Source: an uncultured Gammaproteobacteria bacterium (GTDB lineage: Bacteria > Patescibacteriota > Microgenomatia > Daviesbacterales > UBA10151). Taken from it: DNA of 64,000 nucleotides. Shown one piece after another: positions 2,845 to 6,388 of this stretch. Each line of letters begins with the position of its first letter. Position 1 is the first letter of the stretch. The position numbers and the translations under genes are program-made. The stretch is taken from positions 28,976 through 92,975 of the forward strand of contig CAZFYQ010000003.1 in the NCBI GenBank assembly GCA_964523905.1, read 5' to 3'. The notes under the pieces are model-generated. The model worked only from the letters and a program-made list of their open reading frames with translations, was not told where the DNA came from and made no database searches.

Positions 2845-4119
2845 TTATTTTACCATAAATCTTCTGTCAGCTAAAAAGGAATTGGCTTTGCGGTAGATTT
2901 TGCCGGAACCTAACAAAATTCCTCTTTGTAGGGTAAATTCGCCGTATCTGTTATTAATTTTATCAATGGCTCTGATGATGGTTTCCTGCCGATTAGTTTC
3001 TGGAAGCAGACTTAAATTTTGCGGAGTTTGTGGTTTTAGATTGGCAATTGAGGCTCCAATCATTCGGATGGGACTACCATTCCAGATTTGATGAAAAATT
3101 TGCCAGGCGGCTTGAAAAATTTCCAGCCCATCACTGGTAACCGGGATACTAATCTGCATTCCATCACCTTCAAAATGCATCTTCAGCTTCCAACCCCCGG
3201 GGTTGATTACGTTCAAACCCCGGGGGTTAAGGGCATAGCGGAACCAGCAAGAAACGGTTTTTCCTACCAATTGTTTGGCCCGCAGTTTCCTGGCAATTAG
3301 CTCTGTTAGCTTAAGCAGAATCTGTTTTATTTCTACTTCATCTTTAGTGTCATGGAAAATAGTATGCCGGTGTCCGACAGATTTAACTTCTTCTTTTTCA
3401 TAAAACGGAGTAATTACTGATTCATCAATTCCTCGGGACATGTTATATAGAATCTGGCCATAAGATTTAAAACCAGCCAACAGGGCTTTTAAAGGTACTG
3501 CTCTTAATTTTTTAAAATCAGTTACACCCAGGTTAAACAGTCTTTGTTTAATGGCTCTGCCAATGCCGCAGATTTCATCCAGTTCTATTTGATCTAAAAT
3601 TTTGATAGCAGCTGACTCATCAGCGATAATTACCAACCCGTCCGGTTTTTTAAGATTGCTGGCCAGTTTAGCCATTAATTTATTGTAAGAAATTCCAATA
3701 GACACCCTCATCCATTCCCCAATTTCTGTCCTGATTCTTTGTTTAATCTCCTGGGCCATTACTACTGCCTGTAGCCTGGTGCCTGTGGCCTGTAAGAAGA
3801 CTTCATCAATCGAAAAAATTTCTATAGCCGGGCTGTAGTCTTTTAAAATATTTAAAAAACGCTTGGTTACTTCTAAATATTTATCCGAATCTCCACGTAC
3901 TAAGATAATATTTGGACAAAGTTTTTGAGCTTCCCAAATAGCCATACCGGTTTTAACTCCATATTGTTTGGCTTCAATAGATGCAGCTCCTATTACAGTC
4001 CGTTTCATCCTATCCCCTCCAGTTACTCCAATTGGTTTACCACGCAGTCTGGGATTAGCCTGCTGTTCAACTGTCGCAAAATAGGAATTGAAGTCAATAT
4101 GCATAATAAATTTATTCAT
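2845..4119 (-). CDS. dinB: DNA polymerase IV, Y-family translesion polymerase
   Basis: N-terminus MHIDFNSYFATVEQ and the SIDEVFLD catalytic motif. Y-family palm/fingers/little-finger architecture, 424 aa. Confidence 0.85.
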   Translation of the reverse strand: MNKFIMHIDFNSYFATVEQQANPRLRGKPIGVTGGDRMKRTVIGAASIEAKQYGVKTGMAIWEAQKLCPNIILVRGDSDKYLEVTKRFLNILKDYSPAIEIFSIDEVFLQATGTRLQAVVMAQEIKQRIRTEIGEWMRVSIGISYNKLMAKLASNLKKPDGLVIIADESAAIKILDQIELDEICGIGRAIKQRLFNLGVTDFKKLRAVPLKALLAGFKSYGQILYNMSRGIDESVITPFYEKEEVKSVGHRHTIFHDTKDEVEIKQILLKLTELIARKLRAKQLVGKTVSCWFRYALNPRGLNVINPGGWKLKMHFEGDGMQISIPVTSDGLEIFQAAWQIFHQIWNGSPIRMIGASIANLKPQTPQNLSLLPETNRQETIIRAIDKINNRYGEFTLQRGILLGSGKIYRKANSFLADRRFMVK

Positions 4120-4256
4120 AGGTATAATTCCTGCGATTTGCTACGCAAATCTAAAGAGTTAAAATCTATATGTAAAATGGTTTTATTCATAGGTATAATT
4201 CCTGCGCCTGGCTACGCCAGTCTTAGTCATTAAAATCAATATGTAAAATAGTTCTT
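4115..4256. repeat. 71-bp tandem direct repeat, two full units at 4115-4185 and 4186-4256
   Basis: Each unit holds the identical 21 nt ttcataggtataattcctgcg (contains TATAAT), then a hairpin with compensatory changes (gatttgc-tac-gcaaatc versus ctggc-tac-gccag), then ttaaaatcNatatgtaaaat. A diverged third copy overlaps the dinB start and first codons. Confidence 0.6.
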
Positions 4257-4307
4257 GACAGCATAATTTATTTAAGTTAACTTTTAACTAATGGCTAGAG
4301 AATATGA

Positions 4308-4535
4308 ATGGCTAGAGAATATGAACCCCCTGCAATTAGAGGTGCAGATATTTTATCTAATCTGACGTTTACTCCAGATCTCTCTCCTATGGATAGGATG
4401 GTTGAAGCTAATAAAGCTTTTGATAGATTAGGCATATCAGTGCCTTCTAATCAACCAGATCTTCCTCAACAGCCTGGAGAAACCACCTTAACCGCTCCAG
4501 GTCCAGAGTCAGTTGGTAATAATTTGCCCCACTAG
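4308..4535 (+). CDS. Hypothetical small protein (75 aa)
   Basis: ORF lies downstream of the repeat-borne TATAAT boxes. A 17-nt tandem duplication (aatggctagagaatatg x2) overlaps its start. No recognisable domain. Confidence 0.3.
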   Translation: MAREYEPPAIRGADILSNLTFTPDLSPMDRMVEANKAFDRLGISVPSNQPDLPQQPGETTLTAPGPESVGNNLPH

Positions 4536-4642
4536 AAACTGAGAAATGGTAAAATAACTTACTTCCTTGTTTAGAGGTGTGCACCAGGTTAATTTTATCT
4601 ATTTTAATTTGTCTGCCTCTCCACAGGAAAAACCGAGGTTGT

Positions 4643-6388
4643 ATGGAATTATTCTGGAAAAAAACACCGACATTAATAGCTTCATTAATTTCTGTCATCC
4701 TACTCTTTATATACCCCAACATAACCCAAAGTCAACAAGTATTTGCTACTTATAATCCTCTATCCGTTCCTAATAATAAATTTGGTATTCATTTAATTTC
4801 CGCCACTCGTGATGAGGCTTCCCCGGCTGCTTCACTGGTAAATTCTACAGGTGGTGACTGGGGCTATGTGACGGTTTTAATAGAGGGTAAAGATAAAAAT
4901 CAGGGTAAATGGCAGGAATTTTTTAATGAACTGCGAAGAAGGCATTTAATCCCCATTGTCAGACTGGCTTCTATTCCGGATGGCAATGTCTGGAAAATTC
5001 CGGACCCGGGAGAGGCTCAAAACTGGGCTGACTTTTTGGATTCTTTAATTTGGCCCACTAAAAACAGATATATCATTATTTATAATGAGCCGAATCAGGC
5101 CCATGAATGGGGCGGAGCTGTTGACGCTGCGGCCTATGCCAAAACTCTGGATGCTACTATTACTGCTTTAAAAACCAAAAATCCGGATTTTTTTGTATTA
5201 AATGCCGGCTTGGATGCATCAGCTCCGCAGCAAATGCCAAGCTATCAAGATGAAGTTGCTTATTTACAGGCTATGAATACTGCGGTTCCGGGAATTTTTG
5301 ATAAATTAGATGGTTGGGTATCCCATTCATATCCTAATCCCGGATTTGTGGGCTCTCCGGATGGCATAGGACGCGGTACAGTTCGTACCTGGCTTTGGGA
5401 GCTGCAACAGTTGCGGATTCTAGGCATTACTAAGAATCTACCGGTTTTCATTACAGAAACCGGCTGGAAACATGCGGAAGGGATGATTTATGATTTCTCT
5501 TTGCCGGATGCAGATACAGTAAGTAAATATTACGAGCAGGCTTTTGCAAGAGCCTGGAGTTCCAGTAATATTGTGACAGTTACTCCGTTTTTATTAAGTT
5601 ATCAGGAAAAGCTGTTTGATCACTTCTCGTTTAAAAGACTGGATGGAGTAAGTTCTGATCCGGGATATTATCCTCAGTTTGATGCGATTGCAAAAATGAG
5701 TAAAGTGGCTGGAAAACCAATACAGGAAAATAAAGCTAAGTTAAATAAGGGAGAAGTTTATTCCTCAATTGTAGCTGGTGAAACCTATGATATTTCTTTA
5801 ACCTTCCAAAATACCGGTCAATCAATTTGGGGTGATGGAAATTCTATCAATTTAATTGCCGGTGACGGAGCAAAGGAGCTGGGTATTGAATCTGTAGATT
5901 TGCCAAAGGATCAGAGGGTTGAACCAGGGCAGGAATATACCTTTCATTTAACTTTAAAGGCTCCGTTAGGAGGCACTTATCATGTTTCTCTAAACCTTTA
6001 TGATGGAGCCCAGCAGTTTGATAACAGTGCAGTGGAATTTACCACTGAGGTTAAGTCTCCGGTGATTGTGCGTATTCAAAACTTGTTAAAATGGAAAAAA
6101 GATTCCAGTGGTATTTATACCTTGACTGTTAAAGGTCCAACAGGAGAAAGTACCAGAAATATTACCTTAGATAAAAATGGTACTTCCCAGGACTTTGAAA
6201 TCCGCTATCTGCTTCCGGATTATAACTTTGAATTTACCCTGGATAAACCATACTATCATCCAAAAATCGTAAATCAAAAACTAACTACCGGAGTTAACAC
6301 CTTAAACTTTGGCATCATGGACCCGGAGCTGCTGATAACCATCGGTGATCCCAAAAAACTTTGGCAACTACTCCCCTTTTCAAACTGA
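4643..6388 (+). CDS. Membrane-anchored clan GH-A (GH5-like) glycoside hydrolase with C-terminal beta-sandwich domains
   Basis: IYNEPN fits an acid/base Glu motif and FITETGW fits a nucleophile Glu motif. The N-terminal hydrophobic anchor starts at the second Met (4643); the six-frame ORF starts at 4577. Confidence 0.55.
   Translation: MELFWKKTPTLIASLISVILLFIYPNITQSQQVFATYNPLSVPNNKFGIHLISATRDEASPAASLVNSTGGDWGYVTVLIEGKDKNQGKWQEFFNELRRRHLIPIVRLASIPDGNVWKIPDPGEAQNWADFLDSLIWPTKNRYIIIYNEPNQAHEWGGAVDAAAYAKTLDATITALKTKNPDFFVLNAGLDASAPQQMPSYQDEVAYLQAMNTAVPGIFDKLDGWVSHSYPNPGFVGSPDGIGRGTVRTWLWELQQLRILGITKNLPVFITETGWKHAEGMIYDFSLPDADTVSKYYEQAFARAWSSSNIVTVTPFLLSYQEKLFDHFSFKRLDGVSSDPGYYPQFDAIAKMSKVAGKPIQENKAKLNKGEVYSSIVAGETYDISLTFQNTGQSIWGDGNSINLIAGDGAKELGIESVDLPKDQRVEPGQEYTFHLTLKAPLGGTYHVSLNLYDGAQQFDNSAVEFTTEVKSPVIVRIQNLLKWKKDSSGIYTLTVKGPTGESTRNITLDKNGTSQDFEIRYLLPDYNFEFTLDKPYYHPKIVNQKLTTGVNTLNFGIMDPELLITIGDPKKLWQLLPFSN

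What the first reader, a model, noticed from the sequence alone, without database searches (positions are those of the whole stretch)
4081..4324. 71-bp tandem repeat with covarying hairpins that includes the dinB 5' end, plus an adjacent 17-nt duplication
There are two full units at 4115-4256, and a diverged third copy covers the dinB start and first ~12 codons. The reverse complement of the unit-1 tail reads MNKTILHIDFNSL, against DinB's MNKFIMHIDFNSY. Each full unit carries a conserved TATAAT box. Each also has a hairpin whose two arms changed in a compensatory way between copies (gatttgc/gcaaatc versus ctggc/gccag, same tac loop), which argues for selection on structure. Candidate functions are an operator for damage-inducible control of dinB, a cis-RNA element, or a promoter array for the small plus-strand ORF at 4308. 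Directly downstream, aatggctagagaatatg is duplicated in tandem across that ORF's start.
Basis: seen in the sequence. Interest (0 to 1): 0.55.

Follow-up and report, generated by a model that had tools for sequence, protein, structure and literature searches.

The report
Stacked duplicate start regions of dinB
The 71-base repeat is real: the start of a DNA-repair polymerase gene (a small hairpin, ribosome-binding site, start codon and first 12 codons) is stacked two to three times head to tail, and the same module with a co-varying hairpin occurs in several related uncultured bacteria, so it is an inherited or spreading element and not a one-off accident.

Summary
On the minus strand, 4085-4264 holds 2.4 copies of a 71-nt unit. 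Each unit is a stem-loop with a G-N-A triloop, a Shine-Dalgarno AGGA, an ATG and 12 dinB codons. Only the lowest copy runs into the 424-aa Y-family polymerase. The middle copy is a 24-codon uORF whose TGA overlaps the dinB ATG. The top copy is decayed.

The organism is a Candidatus Daviesbacteria (CPR). The module occurs at the same codon-12/13 junction in 6 of about 48 related dinB loci, and one of them (L055) also has a double stack. Across 8 instances the central stem covaries: 6 of 7 pairs change on both sides, 89% are paired, and 0 of 500 shuffles reach this.

The displaced starts keep HxDFN through synonymous changes only (pS 0.92, pN 0.13 against their own dinB). Units are more alike between lineages than the saturated dinB body. 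Their leader resembles the left end of inverted-repeat-flanked GIY-YIG nuclease cassettes that occupy the same site elsewhere.

Best reading: a stack of displaced start cassettes acting in cis on dinB translation, as a uORF relay plus a leader hairpin. A DNA-level mobile-element scar is the main rival. The operator and promoter-array readings are not supported. The plus-strand TATAAT is the reverse complement of the SD-ATG spacer. The 17-nt duplication is real, recent, and lies in unconserved spacer.

The parts
2845..4119 (-). dinB, a Y-family DNA polymerase IV of 424 aa. Its start codon is at 4119..4117.
   Evidence: Pfam IMS, IMS_C and IMS_HHH_1. NCBIfam DNA polymerase IV models match below their equivalog cut-offs. 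Relatives at 55-73% identity are in Daviesbacteria MAGs.
4085..4155 (-). Unit A, the working start cassette. It has a 36-nt leader (type I, TTTAGA...), the ATG, and dinB codons 1-12 (MNKFIMHIDFNS).
   Evidence: Covariance model R1 scores 59.4 bits at 4116-4157.
4135..4151 (-). Stem-loop of unit A: GATTTGC-GTA-GCAAATC (7 bp, G-N-A triloop closed by C:G).
   Evidence: Covariation.
4129..4132 (-). Shine-Dalgarno AGGA of dinB. It lies 2 nt 3' of the stem-loop and 9 nt before the ATG.
   Evidence: Read from the sequence. The same layout is seen in all 8 instances.
4116..4190 (-). uORF B, 24 codons: MNKTILHIDFNSLDLRSKSQELYL*. It starts at the ATG of unit B, and its TGA overlaps the dinB ATG (ATGA).
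   Evidence: (frame 2). Equivalent uORFs occur in L002, L009, L024 and L055.
4156..4226 (-). Unit B, a displaced start cassette. It has a type II leader (CTAAGAC...), an SD AGGA at 4203..4200, an ATG at 4190, and 12 dinB-like codons.
   Evidence: R1 scores 57.6 bits at 4187-4228. Its codons 4-12 match the working dinB starts of L054 and L056 at 25 of 27 nt.
4208..4220 (-). Stem-loop of unit B: CTGGC-GTA-GCCAG (5 bp, same GTA loop).
4223..4264 (-). Copy C, a decayed oldest start: ATG CTG TCA AGA ACT ATT TTA CAT ATT GAT TTT AAT GAC TAA (MLSRTILHIDFND*). No SD is seen upstream.
   Evidence: (frame 0). A TAA at the same place occurs in L056.
4290..4323 (.). Perfect 17-nt tandem duplication (AATGGCTAGAGAATATG x2; in dinB sense CATATTCTCTAGCCATT x2). 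It lies in the unconserved roughly 180-nt spacer between the small gene and copy C.
   Evidence: The spacer aligns poorly with L055.
4447..4698 (-). Conserved small gene of about 83 aa (MTEINEAINV...LQAVEEDLVD). It is the first gene of the operon. In most relatives its stop overlaps or abuts the dinB ATG.
   Evidence: Weak sub-threshold DUF6504 hits.
4705..4735 (-). Conserved sigma-70-like promoter of the small-gene/dinB operon: TTGACTTTGGGTTATGTTGGGGTATATAAAG.
   Evidence: The motif is conserved upstream of the small gene in about 20 related loci.

Best explanation
The repeat is a head-to-tail stack of dinB 'start cassettes' on the minus strand.

A cassette is 71 nt. It consists of a 36-nt leader, an ATG, and the first 35 nt (codons 1-12) of dinB. 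The leader holds a stem-loop with a G-N-A triloop, then 2 nt, then the Shine-Dalgarno AGGA, then a 9-nt spacer.

Each time a new cassette was added at the codon-12/13 boundary, it took over as the real start. The addition could have come from duplication, unequal exchange, or import from another lineage. The previous start was left upstream as a short ORF.

The window holds two cassettes plus an older decayed start:
- Unit A starts the polymerase.
- Unit B has its own SD and ATG. It is now a 24-codon uORF that reads through the unit-A hairpin and SD and stops at a UGA overlapping the dinB AUG.
- Copy C is dead.

Proposed action, in cis on the mRNA:
- The cassette gives dinB its own ribosome entry site. 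In most relatives dinB instead depends on direct stop/start overlap with the upstream small gene.
- Ribosomes finishing the uORF are handed to the dinB AUG by termination-reinitiation.
- The selected stem-loop just 5' of the SD sets how much independent initiation or mRNA survival there is. It could do this as a barrier, as a stabiliser, or through a weak extension that pairs UCUU with the SD.

Shown: the anatomy, homologous modules in 6 other lineages, selection on stem pairing, coding-type conservation of displaced starts, and SD/ATG/ATGA geometry.

Inferred: that the uORF is translated, that coupling occurs, that the hairpin acts as RNA, and how cassettes are added.
For: Homologous modules:
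- They sit at the identical junction in L002, L009 and L024 and in L054, L055 and L056.
- L055 has a double stack collinear with the window.
- R1 recovers all 8 instances at E 1e-6 to 4e-10 and nothing else in 358 kb.

Central stem:
- 89% of cells are paired, against 20-36% in slid controls.
- 6 of 7 pairs change on both sides.
- 0 of 500 shuffles reach the observed covariation score (whole structure).
- The extra inner stem in L009 and L055 also has one compensatory pair.
- The one wobble pair in the stem (L056) is G:U on the dinB-sense strand.

Translation signals:
- The SD sits 2-3 nt after the stem in all instances.
- uORFs have SDs. These are encoded by the small gene's C-terminal EEE codons or by the preceding cassette.
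- The uORF stop overlaps the dinB ATG in 5 of 8 instances.
- MFE folds extend the stem so that the last relic codons pair with the SD region in WIN_s2, L009 and L024 (L009 z = -5.8).

Displaced starts against their own dinB give pS 0.92 and pN 0.13, with H, D, F and N never changed in 8 relics. In L056 and L009 the relic still overlaps the small gene's stop (ATGA). This is what a former working start would look like.

Stacking order is type II then type I in the window and type I then type II in L055. This fits repeated independent additions.
Against: - No expression data exist.
- The anti-SD extension has no covariation support. It is 80% paired, which equals the shuffle mean.
- The uORF is cut short by TAA before the hairpin in window copy C and in L056. 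It is frameshifted in L055 copy C'. The hairpin is deleted in L054. So neither the full uORF nor the hairpin is indispensable.
- Most Daviesbacteria dinB loci (about 42 of 49) lack the module, and sister lineages differ. The module is therefore dispensable and frequently gained or lost.
- 7 of 8 loops are C-GNA-G. This is the signature of extra-stable DNA mini-hairpins, whose RNA versions are much weaker (PMC13037366). That leans towards a DNA-level role.
- Single-sequence fold z-scores of the short hairpins are unremarkable, -0.2 to -1.6.
- There are only 8 instances and they are not independent.
Confidence: 0.5

Rival explanations
1. DNA-level scar or derivative of a mobile element. In this reading the 71-nt cassette is a non-autonomous, 'self-healing' insertion derived from the left end of an inverted-repeat-flanked GIY-YIG nuclease cassette. 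It is copied into the conserved codon-12/13 region of dinB by break repair or gene conversion, and it carries its own SD, ATG and 12 codons so that dinB survives. The hairpin is a DNA mini-hairpin needed for that process, not an RNA regulator. Any effect on dinB expression is incidental.
For: - GIY-YIG ORFs (Pfam PF01541, E 1e-16) sit between the small gene and dinB in L012, L019 and L059. They lie 300-400 nt upstream of dinB in L024 and L025, and downstream of it in L026.
- These cassettes are flanked by roughly 25-35-nt inverted repeats.
- Their left end (GACTAAGCGAAGCGCATGGAGAAGTACCTATGA) aligns with the cassette leaders at z = 5-9 over shuffles.
- The loops are C-GNA-G, the extra-stable DNA mini-hairpin motif.
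- Units are far more alike between lineages than neutral sites of the adjoining gene. L009 and L055 leaders match at 49 of 53 nt. WIN_B matches L054 and L056 at 25 of 27 nt, a level reached by only 0.6% of all pairs. dinB-body pS is 0.72-0.82.
- Distribution on the DinB tree is patchy.
- Relics look like freshly displaced working starts.
- An insertion that regenerates its own target would predict stacking.
Against: - No GIY-YIG gene exists in the 64-kb window.
- R1 does not pick up the GIY-YIG cassette ends at E <= 10.
- No target-site duplication or defined element ends were found for the 71-nt unit.
- There is no second genomic copy away from dinB.
- No nuclease has been shown to cut dinB.
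- Stacking and spread can be explained by ordinary homologous exchange between direct repeats.
- The constant hairpin-SD geometry also fits an RNA role.
Confidence: 0.3
2. Neutral tandem duplication by replication slippage, with no function. On this reading the conservation is an illusion of recent common descent, or the repeat is an assembly artefact.
For: - The neighbouring perfect 17-nt duplication shows that slippage does happen in this spacer.
- The module is dispensable in most lineages.
Against: - The units are 77% identical, so they are old and not an assembler collapse or expansion.
- The same module is present in six other MAGs and contigs from different studies.
- Stem covariation and a pN/pS of 0.14 in relics are not expected of neutral decay.
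- Logan assembly L001 confirms unit A.
Confidence: 0.07
3. Operator array. The palindromes would be binding sites for a LexA-like repressor that makes dinB damage-inducible.
For: - The sites are palindromic and lie upstream of a classic SOS gene.
Against: - Arm sequences differ completely between units (GATTTGC against CTGGC) and between lineages, while pairing is kept. A protein operator would keep sequence, not pairing.
- The site lies inside the transcribed, translated leader, 15-30 nt from the ATG.
- No further copy exists in the window or in related loci.
- A far better operator candidate is the conserved TTTGGGT repeat inside the operon promoter at 4705-4735.
Confidence: 0.03
4. Promoter array (two TATAAT boxes) driving the plus-strand ORF at 4308.
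For: - Two exact TATAAT hexamers lie on the plus strand (4123-4128 and 4194-4199), upstream of a 75-codon ORF.
Against: - No -35 element lies at 16-18 nt. Promoter-like sites in the region are not above shuffle expectation, 2 against 4.0.
- The hexamer is the complement of the dinB SD-ATG spacer.
- The ORF has no family hit, overlaps the conserved minus-strand small gene, and is not conserved in L055.
- The 17-nt duplication would put the first ATG out of frame.
Confidence: 0.03
5. Recoding. DinB would be made from the upstream ATG by translational bypass (hopping from the relic Asn/Ser codon to the matching codon 71 nt downstream, as in T4 gene 60) or by frameshifting.
For: - Matched Asn codons lie at the end of each copy.
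- A hairpin lies right after the would-be take-off site.
- An SD-like sequence lies inside the gap.
- TAA follows the relic in two instances.
- The relic codons show coding-type conservation.
Against: - The downstream copy has its own SD and ATG, so bypass is unnecessary.
- The Ser codons do not match in L002 and L056 (AGT/AGC against TCT/TCC).
- No stop follows the take-off codon in 5 of 8 instances.
- The dinB frame is closed by TAG in the hairpin loop, so a frameshift product is not possible upstream of the loop.
Confidence: 0.03

Closest known systems
Short upstream ORFs translationally coupled to the downstream gene (for example the iraD leader uORF, PMC5574718; the mgtA/intergenic small-ORF cases, PMC8092293; ermC-type leader peptides, from own knowledge)
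   Same: - A short ORF with its own SD.
- A stop codon overlapping or adjacent to the main start (ATGA).
- An RNA stem next to the main SD.
- An operon-internal position.
   Different: - Here the uORF is a copy of the gene's own first 12 codons and keeps them at the protein level.
- The module is stacked in tandem.
- It is patchily distributed and appears exchangeable between lineages.
- SD sequestration by the stem is not supported by covariation.
- Nothing has been tested experimentally.
Extra-stable DNA mini-hairpins GCGNAGC / C-GNA-G (Hirao and colleagues; review PMC13037366)
   Same: - 7 of 8 loops are C-GNA-G.
- Three instances contain exactly GCGAAGC, the two window units contain GCGTAGC, and L024 has CCGAAGG as in the ssiA origin hairpin.
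   Different: - Known natural examples lie at single-strand replication initiation sites and phage N4 promoters, not in a gene leader.
- The stems here are longer (5-7 bp) and covary.
- Whether the DNA or the RNA form matters is unknown.
Free-standing GIY-YIG homing-endonuclease cassettes next to conserved genes (phage seg/mob-type genes, from own knowledge; GIY-YIG superfamily survey PMC1564403)
   Same: - A small GIY-YIG ORF is inserted polymorphically beside a highly conserved coding sequence.
- Neighbouring sequence looks exchanged between lineages.
- The cassette supplies translation signals.
   Different: - The window itself has no nuclease gene.
- The GIY-YIG proteins here are single-domain (88 aa), with no recognisable DNA-binding domain.
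- They are flanked by inverted repeats.
- No cleavage site is known.
- The 71-nt unit has no ORF.
Integrative elements that insert in the 5' end of a gene and restore it with their own copy (for example dusA-specific genomic islands, from own knowledge)
   Same: - The insertion displaces the original 5' end.
- It supplies a replacement, leaving a direct repeat of the gene's start.
   Different: - Those elements are kilobases long, encode an integrase, and sit between the repeats.
- Here nothing lies between the repeats except a 36-nt leader.

Membership tests
Translationally coupled uORF / leader peptide | A short ORF with a start codon and SD upstream of the regulated gene, on the same strand. 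| tested here: met
   uORF B is at 4190..4116, with an SD AGGA at 4203..4200. Equivalent ORFs with SDs are present in L002, L009, L024, L055 and L056.
Translationally coupled uORF / leader peptide | The uORF stop overlaps or lies within a few nt of the main start codon. | tested here: met
   An ATGA overlap is seen in window B, L002, L009, L024 and L055 B'. In window C and L056 the uORF instead ends at a TAA 32 nt before the next ATG.
Translationally coupled uORF / leader peptide | A structure that hides the main SD or start and is opened by uORF translation. | tested here: inconclusive
   MFE folds pair the relic's last codons with the SD region in WIN_s2, L009 and L024. This outer helix shows no covariation and is no better than shuffles.
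Translationally coupled uORF / leader peptide | Main-gene expression depends on uORF translation. | not testable with these tools
   This needs reporter fusions or ribosome profiling.
Structured cis-regulatory RNA (Rfam family) | A match to a curated covariance model. | tested here: not met
   cmscan of 3800-4700 at E <= 10 gave only four chance-level hits, none in the repeat.
Structured cis-regulatory RNA (generic) | A helix maintained by compensatory changes across homologues. | tested here: met
   In the central stem, 6 of 7 pairs change on both sides. 89% of cells are paired against 20-36% in slid controls, and 0 of 500 shuffles match.
LexA/SOS-type operator | A conserved palindromic sequence motif shared by several damage-inducible genes. 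| tested here: not met
   The arms are not conserved in sequence. R1 finds no other copy in the window or in 39 related loci.
Sigma-70 promoter (plus strand) | A -35 hexamer 16-18 nt upstream of the -10, and a real downstream gene. | tested here: not met
   Neither TATAAT is reported with a -35. The downstream ORF is not conserved.
DNA mini-hairpin (GCGNAGC class) | A G-N-A triloop closed by C:G on a short G+C stem. | tested here: met
   The loops are GTA, GTA, GCA, GAA, GAA, GAA and GAA, closed by C:G in 7 of 8 instances. L056 has ACA. The motif is defined in PMC13037366. Formation in vivo was not tested.
GIY-YIG homing/mobile cassette | A GIY-YIG nuclease ORF within the element. | tested here: not met
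   tblastn finds no GIY-YIG gene in the window. The 71-nt unit has no room for one.
GIY-YIG homing/mobile cassette | Sequence relationship to cassette ends, and insertion polymorphism at the same site. | tested here: met
   The left end aligns with the leaders at z = 5-9. Cassettes lie between the small gene and dinB in L012, L019 and L059.
MITE / insertion sequence | Terminal inverted repeats, a target-site duplication, and multiple dispersed genomic copies. | tested here: not met
   Copies occur only at dinB. The palindrome is internal, not terminal. The flanking direct repeat is 35 nt of coding sequence with saturated synonymous divergence, so it is not a fresh target-site duplication.
T4 gene 60-type translational bypass | Matched take-off and landing codons, a stop right after take-off, and no independent start for the downstream part. 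| tested here: not met
   The Ser codons are mismatched in L002 and L056. No stop follows the take-off codon in 5 of 8 instances. The downstream copy has its own SD and ATG.

The most novel reading that the evidence does not exclude
The 71-nt unit is a new kind of miniature, ORF-less, 'self-healing' insertion cassette. It would descend from the end of inverted-repeat-flanked GIY-YIG nuclease cassettes of Patescibacteria. It is repeatedly copied into the most conserved stretch of dinB (the codon-12/13 boundary). It keeps the gene alive by bringing its own DNA mini-hairpin, ribosome-binding site, start codon and 12 codons. Because it regenerates its own target, it stacks, leaving a fossil series of displaced starts that are still translated as uORFs.
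Probability: 0.25. Interest if true: 0.75.

Novelty: new variant of a known kind. Interest (0 to 1): 0.55.

Why it matters
Almost nothing is known about gene regulation or mobile DNA in CPR/Patescibacteria.

Regulation. A mutagenic translesion polymerase has acquired, in several lineages, a modular leader: a selected hairpin, its own ribosome-binding site, and a relay uORF made from the gene's own start. This leader uncouples the polymerase from the partner gene it is normally translationally fused to. If it is regulatory, it would be a previously undescribed post-transcriptional control of DinB dosage in organisms that cannot be cultured.

Mobile DNA. If the cassette is mobile, it would be an unusually small element that repairs the gene it interrupts. 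It would also tie single-domain GIY-YIG nucleases with inverted-repeat ends to gene-start remodelling.

Testability. Either reading can be tested with simple reporter constructs and with read-level analysis of existing metagenomes.

Tried and rejected
- A metagenome-wide pattern scan for the relic/leader junction (RTNHTNCAYNNNGAYTTYAAYWSNTTRGAY) gave 12 matches. All were chance hits in unrelated contexts.
- A related-loci run with the uORF peptide alignment on viral contigs picked a pattern that also fits real DinB starts, and it found nothing.
- Rfam gave no family.
- I tested whether the 36-nt leader derives from dinB codons 13-24, which would make the unit an internal duplication of the first 71 coding nt. 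Alignment scores were mostly z < 3, so I rejected this.
- I considered that the leader derives from the last 12 codons of the small gene. It is in the same frame, both end in ATGA, and by eye KWxLEAVEEE resembles DWRSQAQELYL. This was only looked at by eye and not pursued.
- I looked for a sense-strand promoter inside the unit. TTTACA-17-TAGATT occurs in window unit B/A and TATAAT in L055_s2. It is not conserved in other instances, so I dropped it.
- I checked whether C-GNA-G hairpins are a genome-wide family. There are 4 in the window against 1.4 expected, and 2 of them are the repeat. The GCGNAGC heptamers number 19 against 8.6 expected, but without extended stems.
- Diversity-generating retroelement: the differences between units are not adenine-specific (by eye), and I did not look for a reverse transcriptase nearby.
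- Extra contig look-ups for DinBs with MNK-like N-termini (P0111, P0100, P0071, P0047, P0011, P0110) gave loci without the module. P0087 had no DNA available, and P0089 was not on record.
Full report
**What is there**

The window is 38.8% G+C. The gene at 2845-4119 on the minus strand is a Y-family polymerase: Pfam IMS, IMS_C and IMS_HHH_1, with NCBIfam DNA polymerase IV models matching below their equivalog cut-offs. Its relatives, at 55-73% identity, are almost all Candidatus Daviesbacteria / Microgenomates MAGs. The window therefore comes from a CPR bacterium.

TRF and the repeat finder confirm a period-71 array at 4085-4253 (2.4 copies, 78% matches, score 212) and a perfect 17-nt tandem duplication at 4290-4323. 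Nothing comparable exists elsewhere in the 64 kb.

**Anatomy in dinB sense**

- Unit A (4155..4085) reads TTTAGATTTGCGTAGCAAATCGCAGGAATTATACCT-ATG AAT AAA TTT ATT ATG CAT ATT GAC TTC AAT TC. It holds a 7-bp stem with a GTA loop (4151..4135), then 2 nt, then the SD AGGA (4132..4129), then 9 nt, then the dinB ATG (4119) and codons 1-12.
- Unit B (4226..4156) has the same layout with a different stem (CTGGC-GTA-GCCAG, 4220..4208). Its ATG (4190) opens a 24-codon ORF, MNKTILHIDFNSLDLRSKSQELYL. This ORF reads through the unit-A hairpin and SD and ends at a TGA overlapping the dinB ATG (ATGA).
- Copy C (4264..4223) is a decayed start, MLSRTILHIDFND*, with no visible SD.

**The surroundings change the picture**

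The minus-strand ORF at 4447-4722 (the real start is probably at 4698) is a small gene conserved upstream of dinB in nearly every relative (...FYHFSVSSGGNFYRLKFD..KWxLEAVEEE). It gives only sub-threshold DUF6504 hits.

In most relatives the small gene's stop overlaps or abuts the dinB ATG, and its C-terminal Glu codons encode the SD. A strongly conserved promoter, TTGACTTTGGGTTnnnTTTGGGTATAnA, lies upstream of the small gene in about 20 loci. In the window it sits at minus-strand 4735..4705.

The plus-strand ORF at 4308-4535 overlaps this small gene, has no family hit, and is not conserved with the antisense ORF at the same place in L055. I regard it as spurious. The 17-nt duplication lies in a roughly 180-nt spacer that aligns poorly even with the closest collinear locus. 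It is best read as a recent slippage event.

**The module is not unique to the window**

Scanning upstream regions of related loci for a second HxDFN coding stretch found the same arrangement in L002, L009 and L024. After contig look-ups for DinB homologues with tell-tale N-termini, it also appeared in L054, L055 and L056.

- L055 has a double stack collinear with the window.
- L056 has the small gene overlapping (ATGA) a 9-codon relic, MILHIDFNS*, followed by the hairpin GACTGAC-ACA-GTTAGTC, GCAGGAATTATACAT and the dinB ATG.
- L009 has small gene-ATGA-uORF-ATGA-dinB, with a longer hairpin.
- L054 keeps the relic but has lost the hairpin.

In total 7 of about 49 Daviesbacteria dinB loci (including the window) carry the module. 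They are scattered on a DinB tree, and their nearest neighbours lack it.

A junction-specific pattern scan of the metagenome collection returned only chance matches. A covariance model of the leader (R1) recovers the eight known instances at E 4e-10 to 2e-6 and the L054 remnant at E 0.1. It finds nothing else above noise in the window plus 39 loci, 358 kb in all. There is thus no family of such hairpins upstream of other genes.

**The hairpin is under selection for pairing**

In the alignment of eight leaders, the seven central pairs are 89% paired, against 20-36% when partners are slid by 1-3 columns. Six of the seven pairs show changes on both sides. None of 500 shuffles reaches the observed pairing or covariation score (whole structure). 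L009 and L055_s1 carry an extra inner stem (CGCGC-GAA-GCGCG against CACGC-GAA-GCGTG) that has its own compensatory pair.

An outer helix would pair the last relic codons (UCUU, UAA) with the SD and its spacer. It appears in minimum-energy folds of WIN_s2, L009 (z = -5.8) and L024. It has no covariation and is no better than shuffles, so SD occlusion is only compatible with the data, not shown.

Seven of the eight loops are G-N-A closed by C:G. Three instances contain exactly GCGAAGC, and the two window units contain GCGTAGC. This is the extraordinarily stable DNA mini-hairpin motif (Tm 70-76 C for GCGNAGC), whose RNA versions are much weaker (PMC13037366). The single wobble pair in the stem is G:U on the dinB-sense strand. 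The data do not decide between an RNA hairpin and a sense-strand DNA hairpin.

**The displaced starts look like former working starts**

Eight relics were compared with the dinB start of their own locus over codons ILHIDFNS. This gave 29.5 synonymous differences on 32 synonymous sites (pS 0.92), but only 20.5 non-synonymous differences on 160 sites (pN 0.13). H, D, F and N are never changed. Neutral decay for as long as it takes to saturate synonymous sites would have destroyed the peptide.

Two explanations are possible. The relics may be young relative to the divergence of the alleles they sit next to, or they may be kept by selection.

- Window copy B is only 2 nt (of 24-27) from the working dinB starts of L054 and L056. 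Only 0.6% of all locus pairs are that similar there.
- The non-coding leaders of L009 and L055_s1 match at 49 of 53 positions.
- Synonymous sites of the dinB body are saturated between all module-bearing lineages (pS 0.72-0.82).
- Leaders fall into two types (TCT TTA GAT... and GAC TAA/TAT GAC...). They occur in opposite order in the window (II then I) and in L055 (I then II).

Together these points indicate that the 71-nt unit behaves as a block. It is added repeatedly at the codon-12/13 boundary, by unequal exchange or by import from other lineages. The newest unit lies nearest the gene, and each addition demotes the previous start to a uORF.

**Link to GIY-YIG cassettes**

In L012, L019 and L059 an 88-aa GIY-YIG ORF (PF01541, E 1e-16) lies exactly between the small gene and dinB. 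In L024 and L025 one lies 300-400 nt upstream, and in L026 one lies downstream. These ORFs are bracketed by roughly 25-35-nt inverted repeats.

The left end plus ribosome-binding site (GACTAAGCGAAGCGCATGGAGAAGTACCTATGA in L019) aligns with the cassette leaders at z = 5-9 over shuffles. R1 does not reach these ends at E <= 10. The window has no GIY-YIG gene.

This makes the region between the small gene and dinB a hot spot for insertion. It also suggests that the leader descends from such a cassette end. How that happened, and whether a nuclease drives copying, is inference only.

**Mechanism I commit to (confidence about 0.5)**

The array is a stack of displaced dinB start cassettes that acts in cis on the mRNA.

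- The cassette gives dinB its own SD instead of the direct stop/start overlap with the small gene.
- The upstream cassette is translated into a short peptide, and the terminating ribosome is delivered to the dinB AUG.
- The selected stem-loop just 5' of the SD tunes initiation or transcript stability.

The main rival (about 0.3) is that the unit is a DNA-level derivative of a mobile GIY-YIG cassette, with a hairpin that serves copying rather than expression. The two readings are not exclusive. A cassette that must keep dinB alive needs working translation signals in either case.

The other readings each fail a direct test:
- operator;
- plus-strand promoter array;
- bypass or frameshift recoding;
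- pure slippage or assembly artefact.

**Comparison with known systems**

The array works most like a translationally coupled leader uORF with an adjacent RNA stem. It is not a member of any Rfam family. What is unusual:

- The uORF is a copy of the gene's own start and is kept at the protein level.
- The module is stacked.
- It is shared patchily between deeply diverged lineages.
- Its loop is a DNA mini-hairpin motif.
- Its leader resembles the end of a nuclease cassette.

I found no description of such an arrangement in the literature searches. I rate it a new variant of a known kind, with a minority chance that it is a new type of miniature gene-restoring insertion.

Noticed in passing
window 4705-4735 (minus strand); also L004-L061 upstream of the small gene: A strongly conserved promoter-like block, cTTGAC(T/C)TTGGGTTnnnTTT(G/C)GGTATAnA, lies upstream of the small gene/dinB operon in about 20 lineages. 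It has a direct repeat of TTTGGGT between the -35 and -10. L009 position 334 has a palindromic variant, ACTTTGGGctaCCCAAAGT, upstream of another gene. This is a better candidate than the hairpins for a repressor (SOS-like) operator.
   Followed up: partly
window 4447-4698 (minus strand): A small gene of about 83 aa is conserved upstream of dinB in nearly all Daviesbacteria relatives, usually with its stop overlapping the dinB ATG. It gives only sub-threshold DUF6504 hits (17-23 bits against a 24.2 cut-off) and faint I-TevI DNA-binding-domain hits. It may be a DinB partner or regulator of unknown function.
   Followed up: partly
L012 3650-3995; L019 3660-3990; L059 610-955; L026 1165-1470 (minus strand): 88-aa single-domain GIY-YIG ORFs are bracketed by roughly 25-35-nt imperfect inverted repeats (TTCGAC...GCGAAG...GAGAA). 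They are inserted at different places: between the small gene and dinB, or downstream of dinB. The right repeat supplies the dinB start codon in L012 and L059. They look like a mobile cassette family.
   Followed up: partly
L024 3320-3350 and 3720-3750; L025 3455-3485 and 3815-3845: A more distant GIY-YIG gene upstream of dinB is flanked by hairpins with GAAA loops (ATCCCGGC-GAAA-GCCGGGAT in L024 against ATCCCGAC-GAAA-GTCGGGAT in L025, a compensatory change). These contain the other canonical DNA mini-hairpin motif, GCGAAAGC/ACGAAAGT.
   Followed up: no
L024 3854-3910; L025 3906-3962: A conserved 18-codon ORF with a strong SD lies just upstream of the dinB leader in both loci (MLNELPGVVSFFEFFGLC and MMNELAGVSSFFSFLGLC). 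It could be another leader peptide or a small protein.
   Followed up: no
window 4290-4323: A perfect 17-nt tandem duplication (2.1 copies) lies in the unconserved spacer between the small gene and the repeat array. On the plus strand it duplicates the ATG of a non-conserved ORF and shifts the first ATG out of frame. It is most simply a recent slippage event.
   Followed up: yes
L004, L028, L029, L021: 60-130 nt upstream of dinB: In relatives without the module, the spacer between the small gene and dinB often consists of short low-complexity tandem repeats. Examples are ATTTCTA x4 in L029, CAGTCATCAG/CTGATAG repeats in L004 and L028, and TTTAGAAT-like repeats in L021. This intergenic position is generally unstable.
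   Followed up: no
window 4327-4347: A terminator-like hairpin is predicted on both strands (CTGCAATTAGAGGTGCAG / CCTCTAATTGCAGGGG) between the small gene and the repeat array. If it works on the minus strand, the dinB array in this organism would need its own promoter.
   Followed up: no
window, whole: The heptamer GCGNAGC occurs 19 times against 8.6 expected from shuffles. Outside the repeat these occurrences are not embedded in longer stems.
   Followed up: partly
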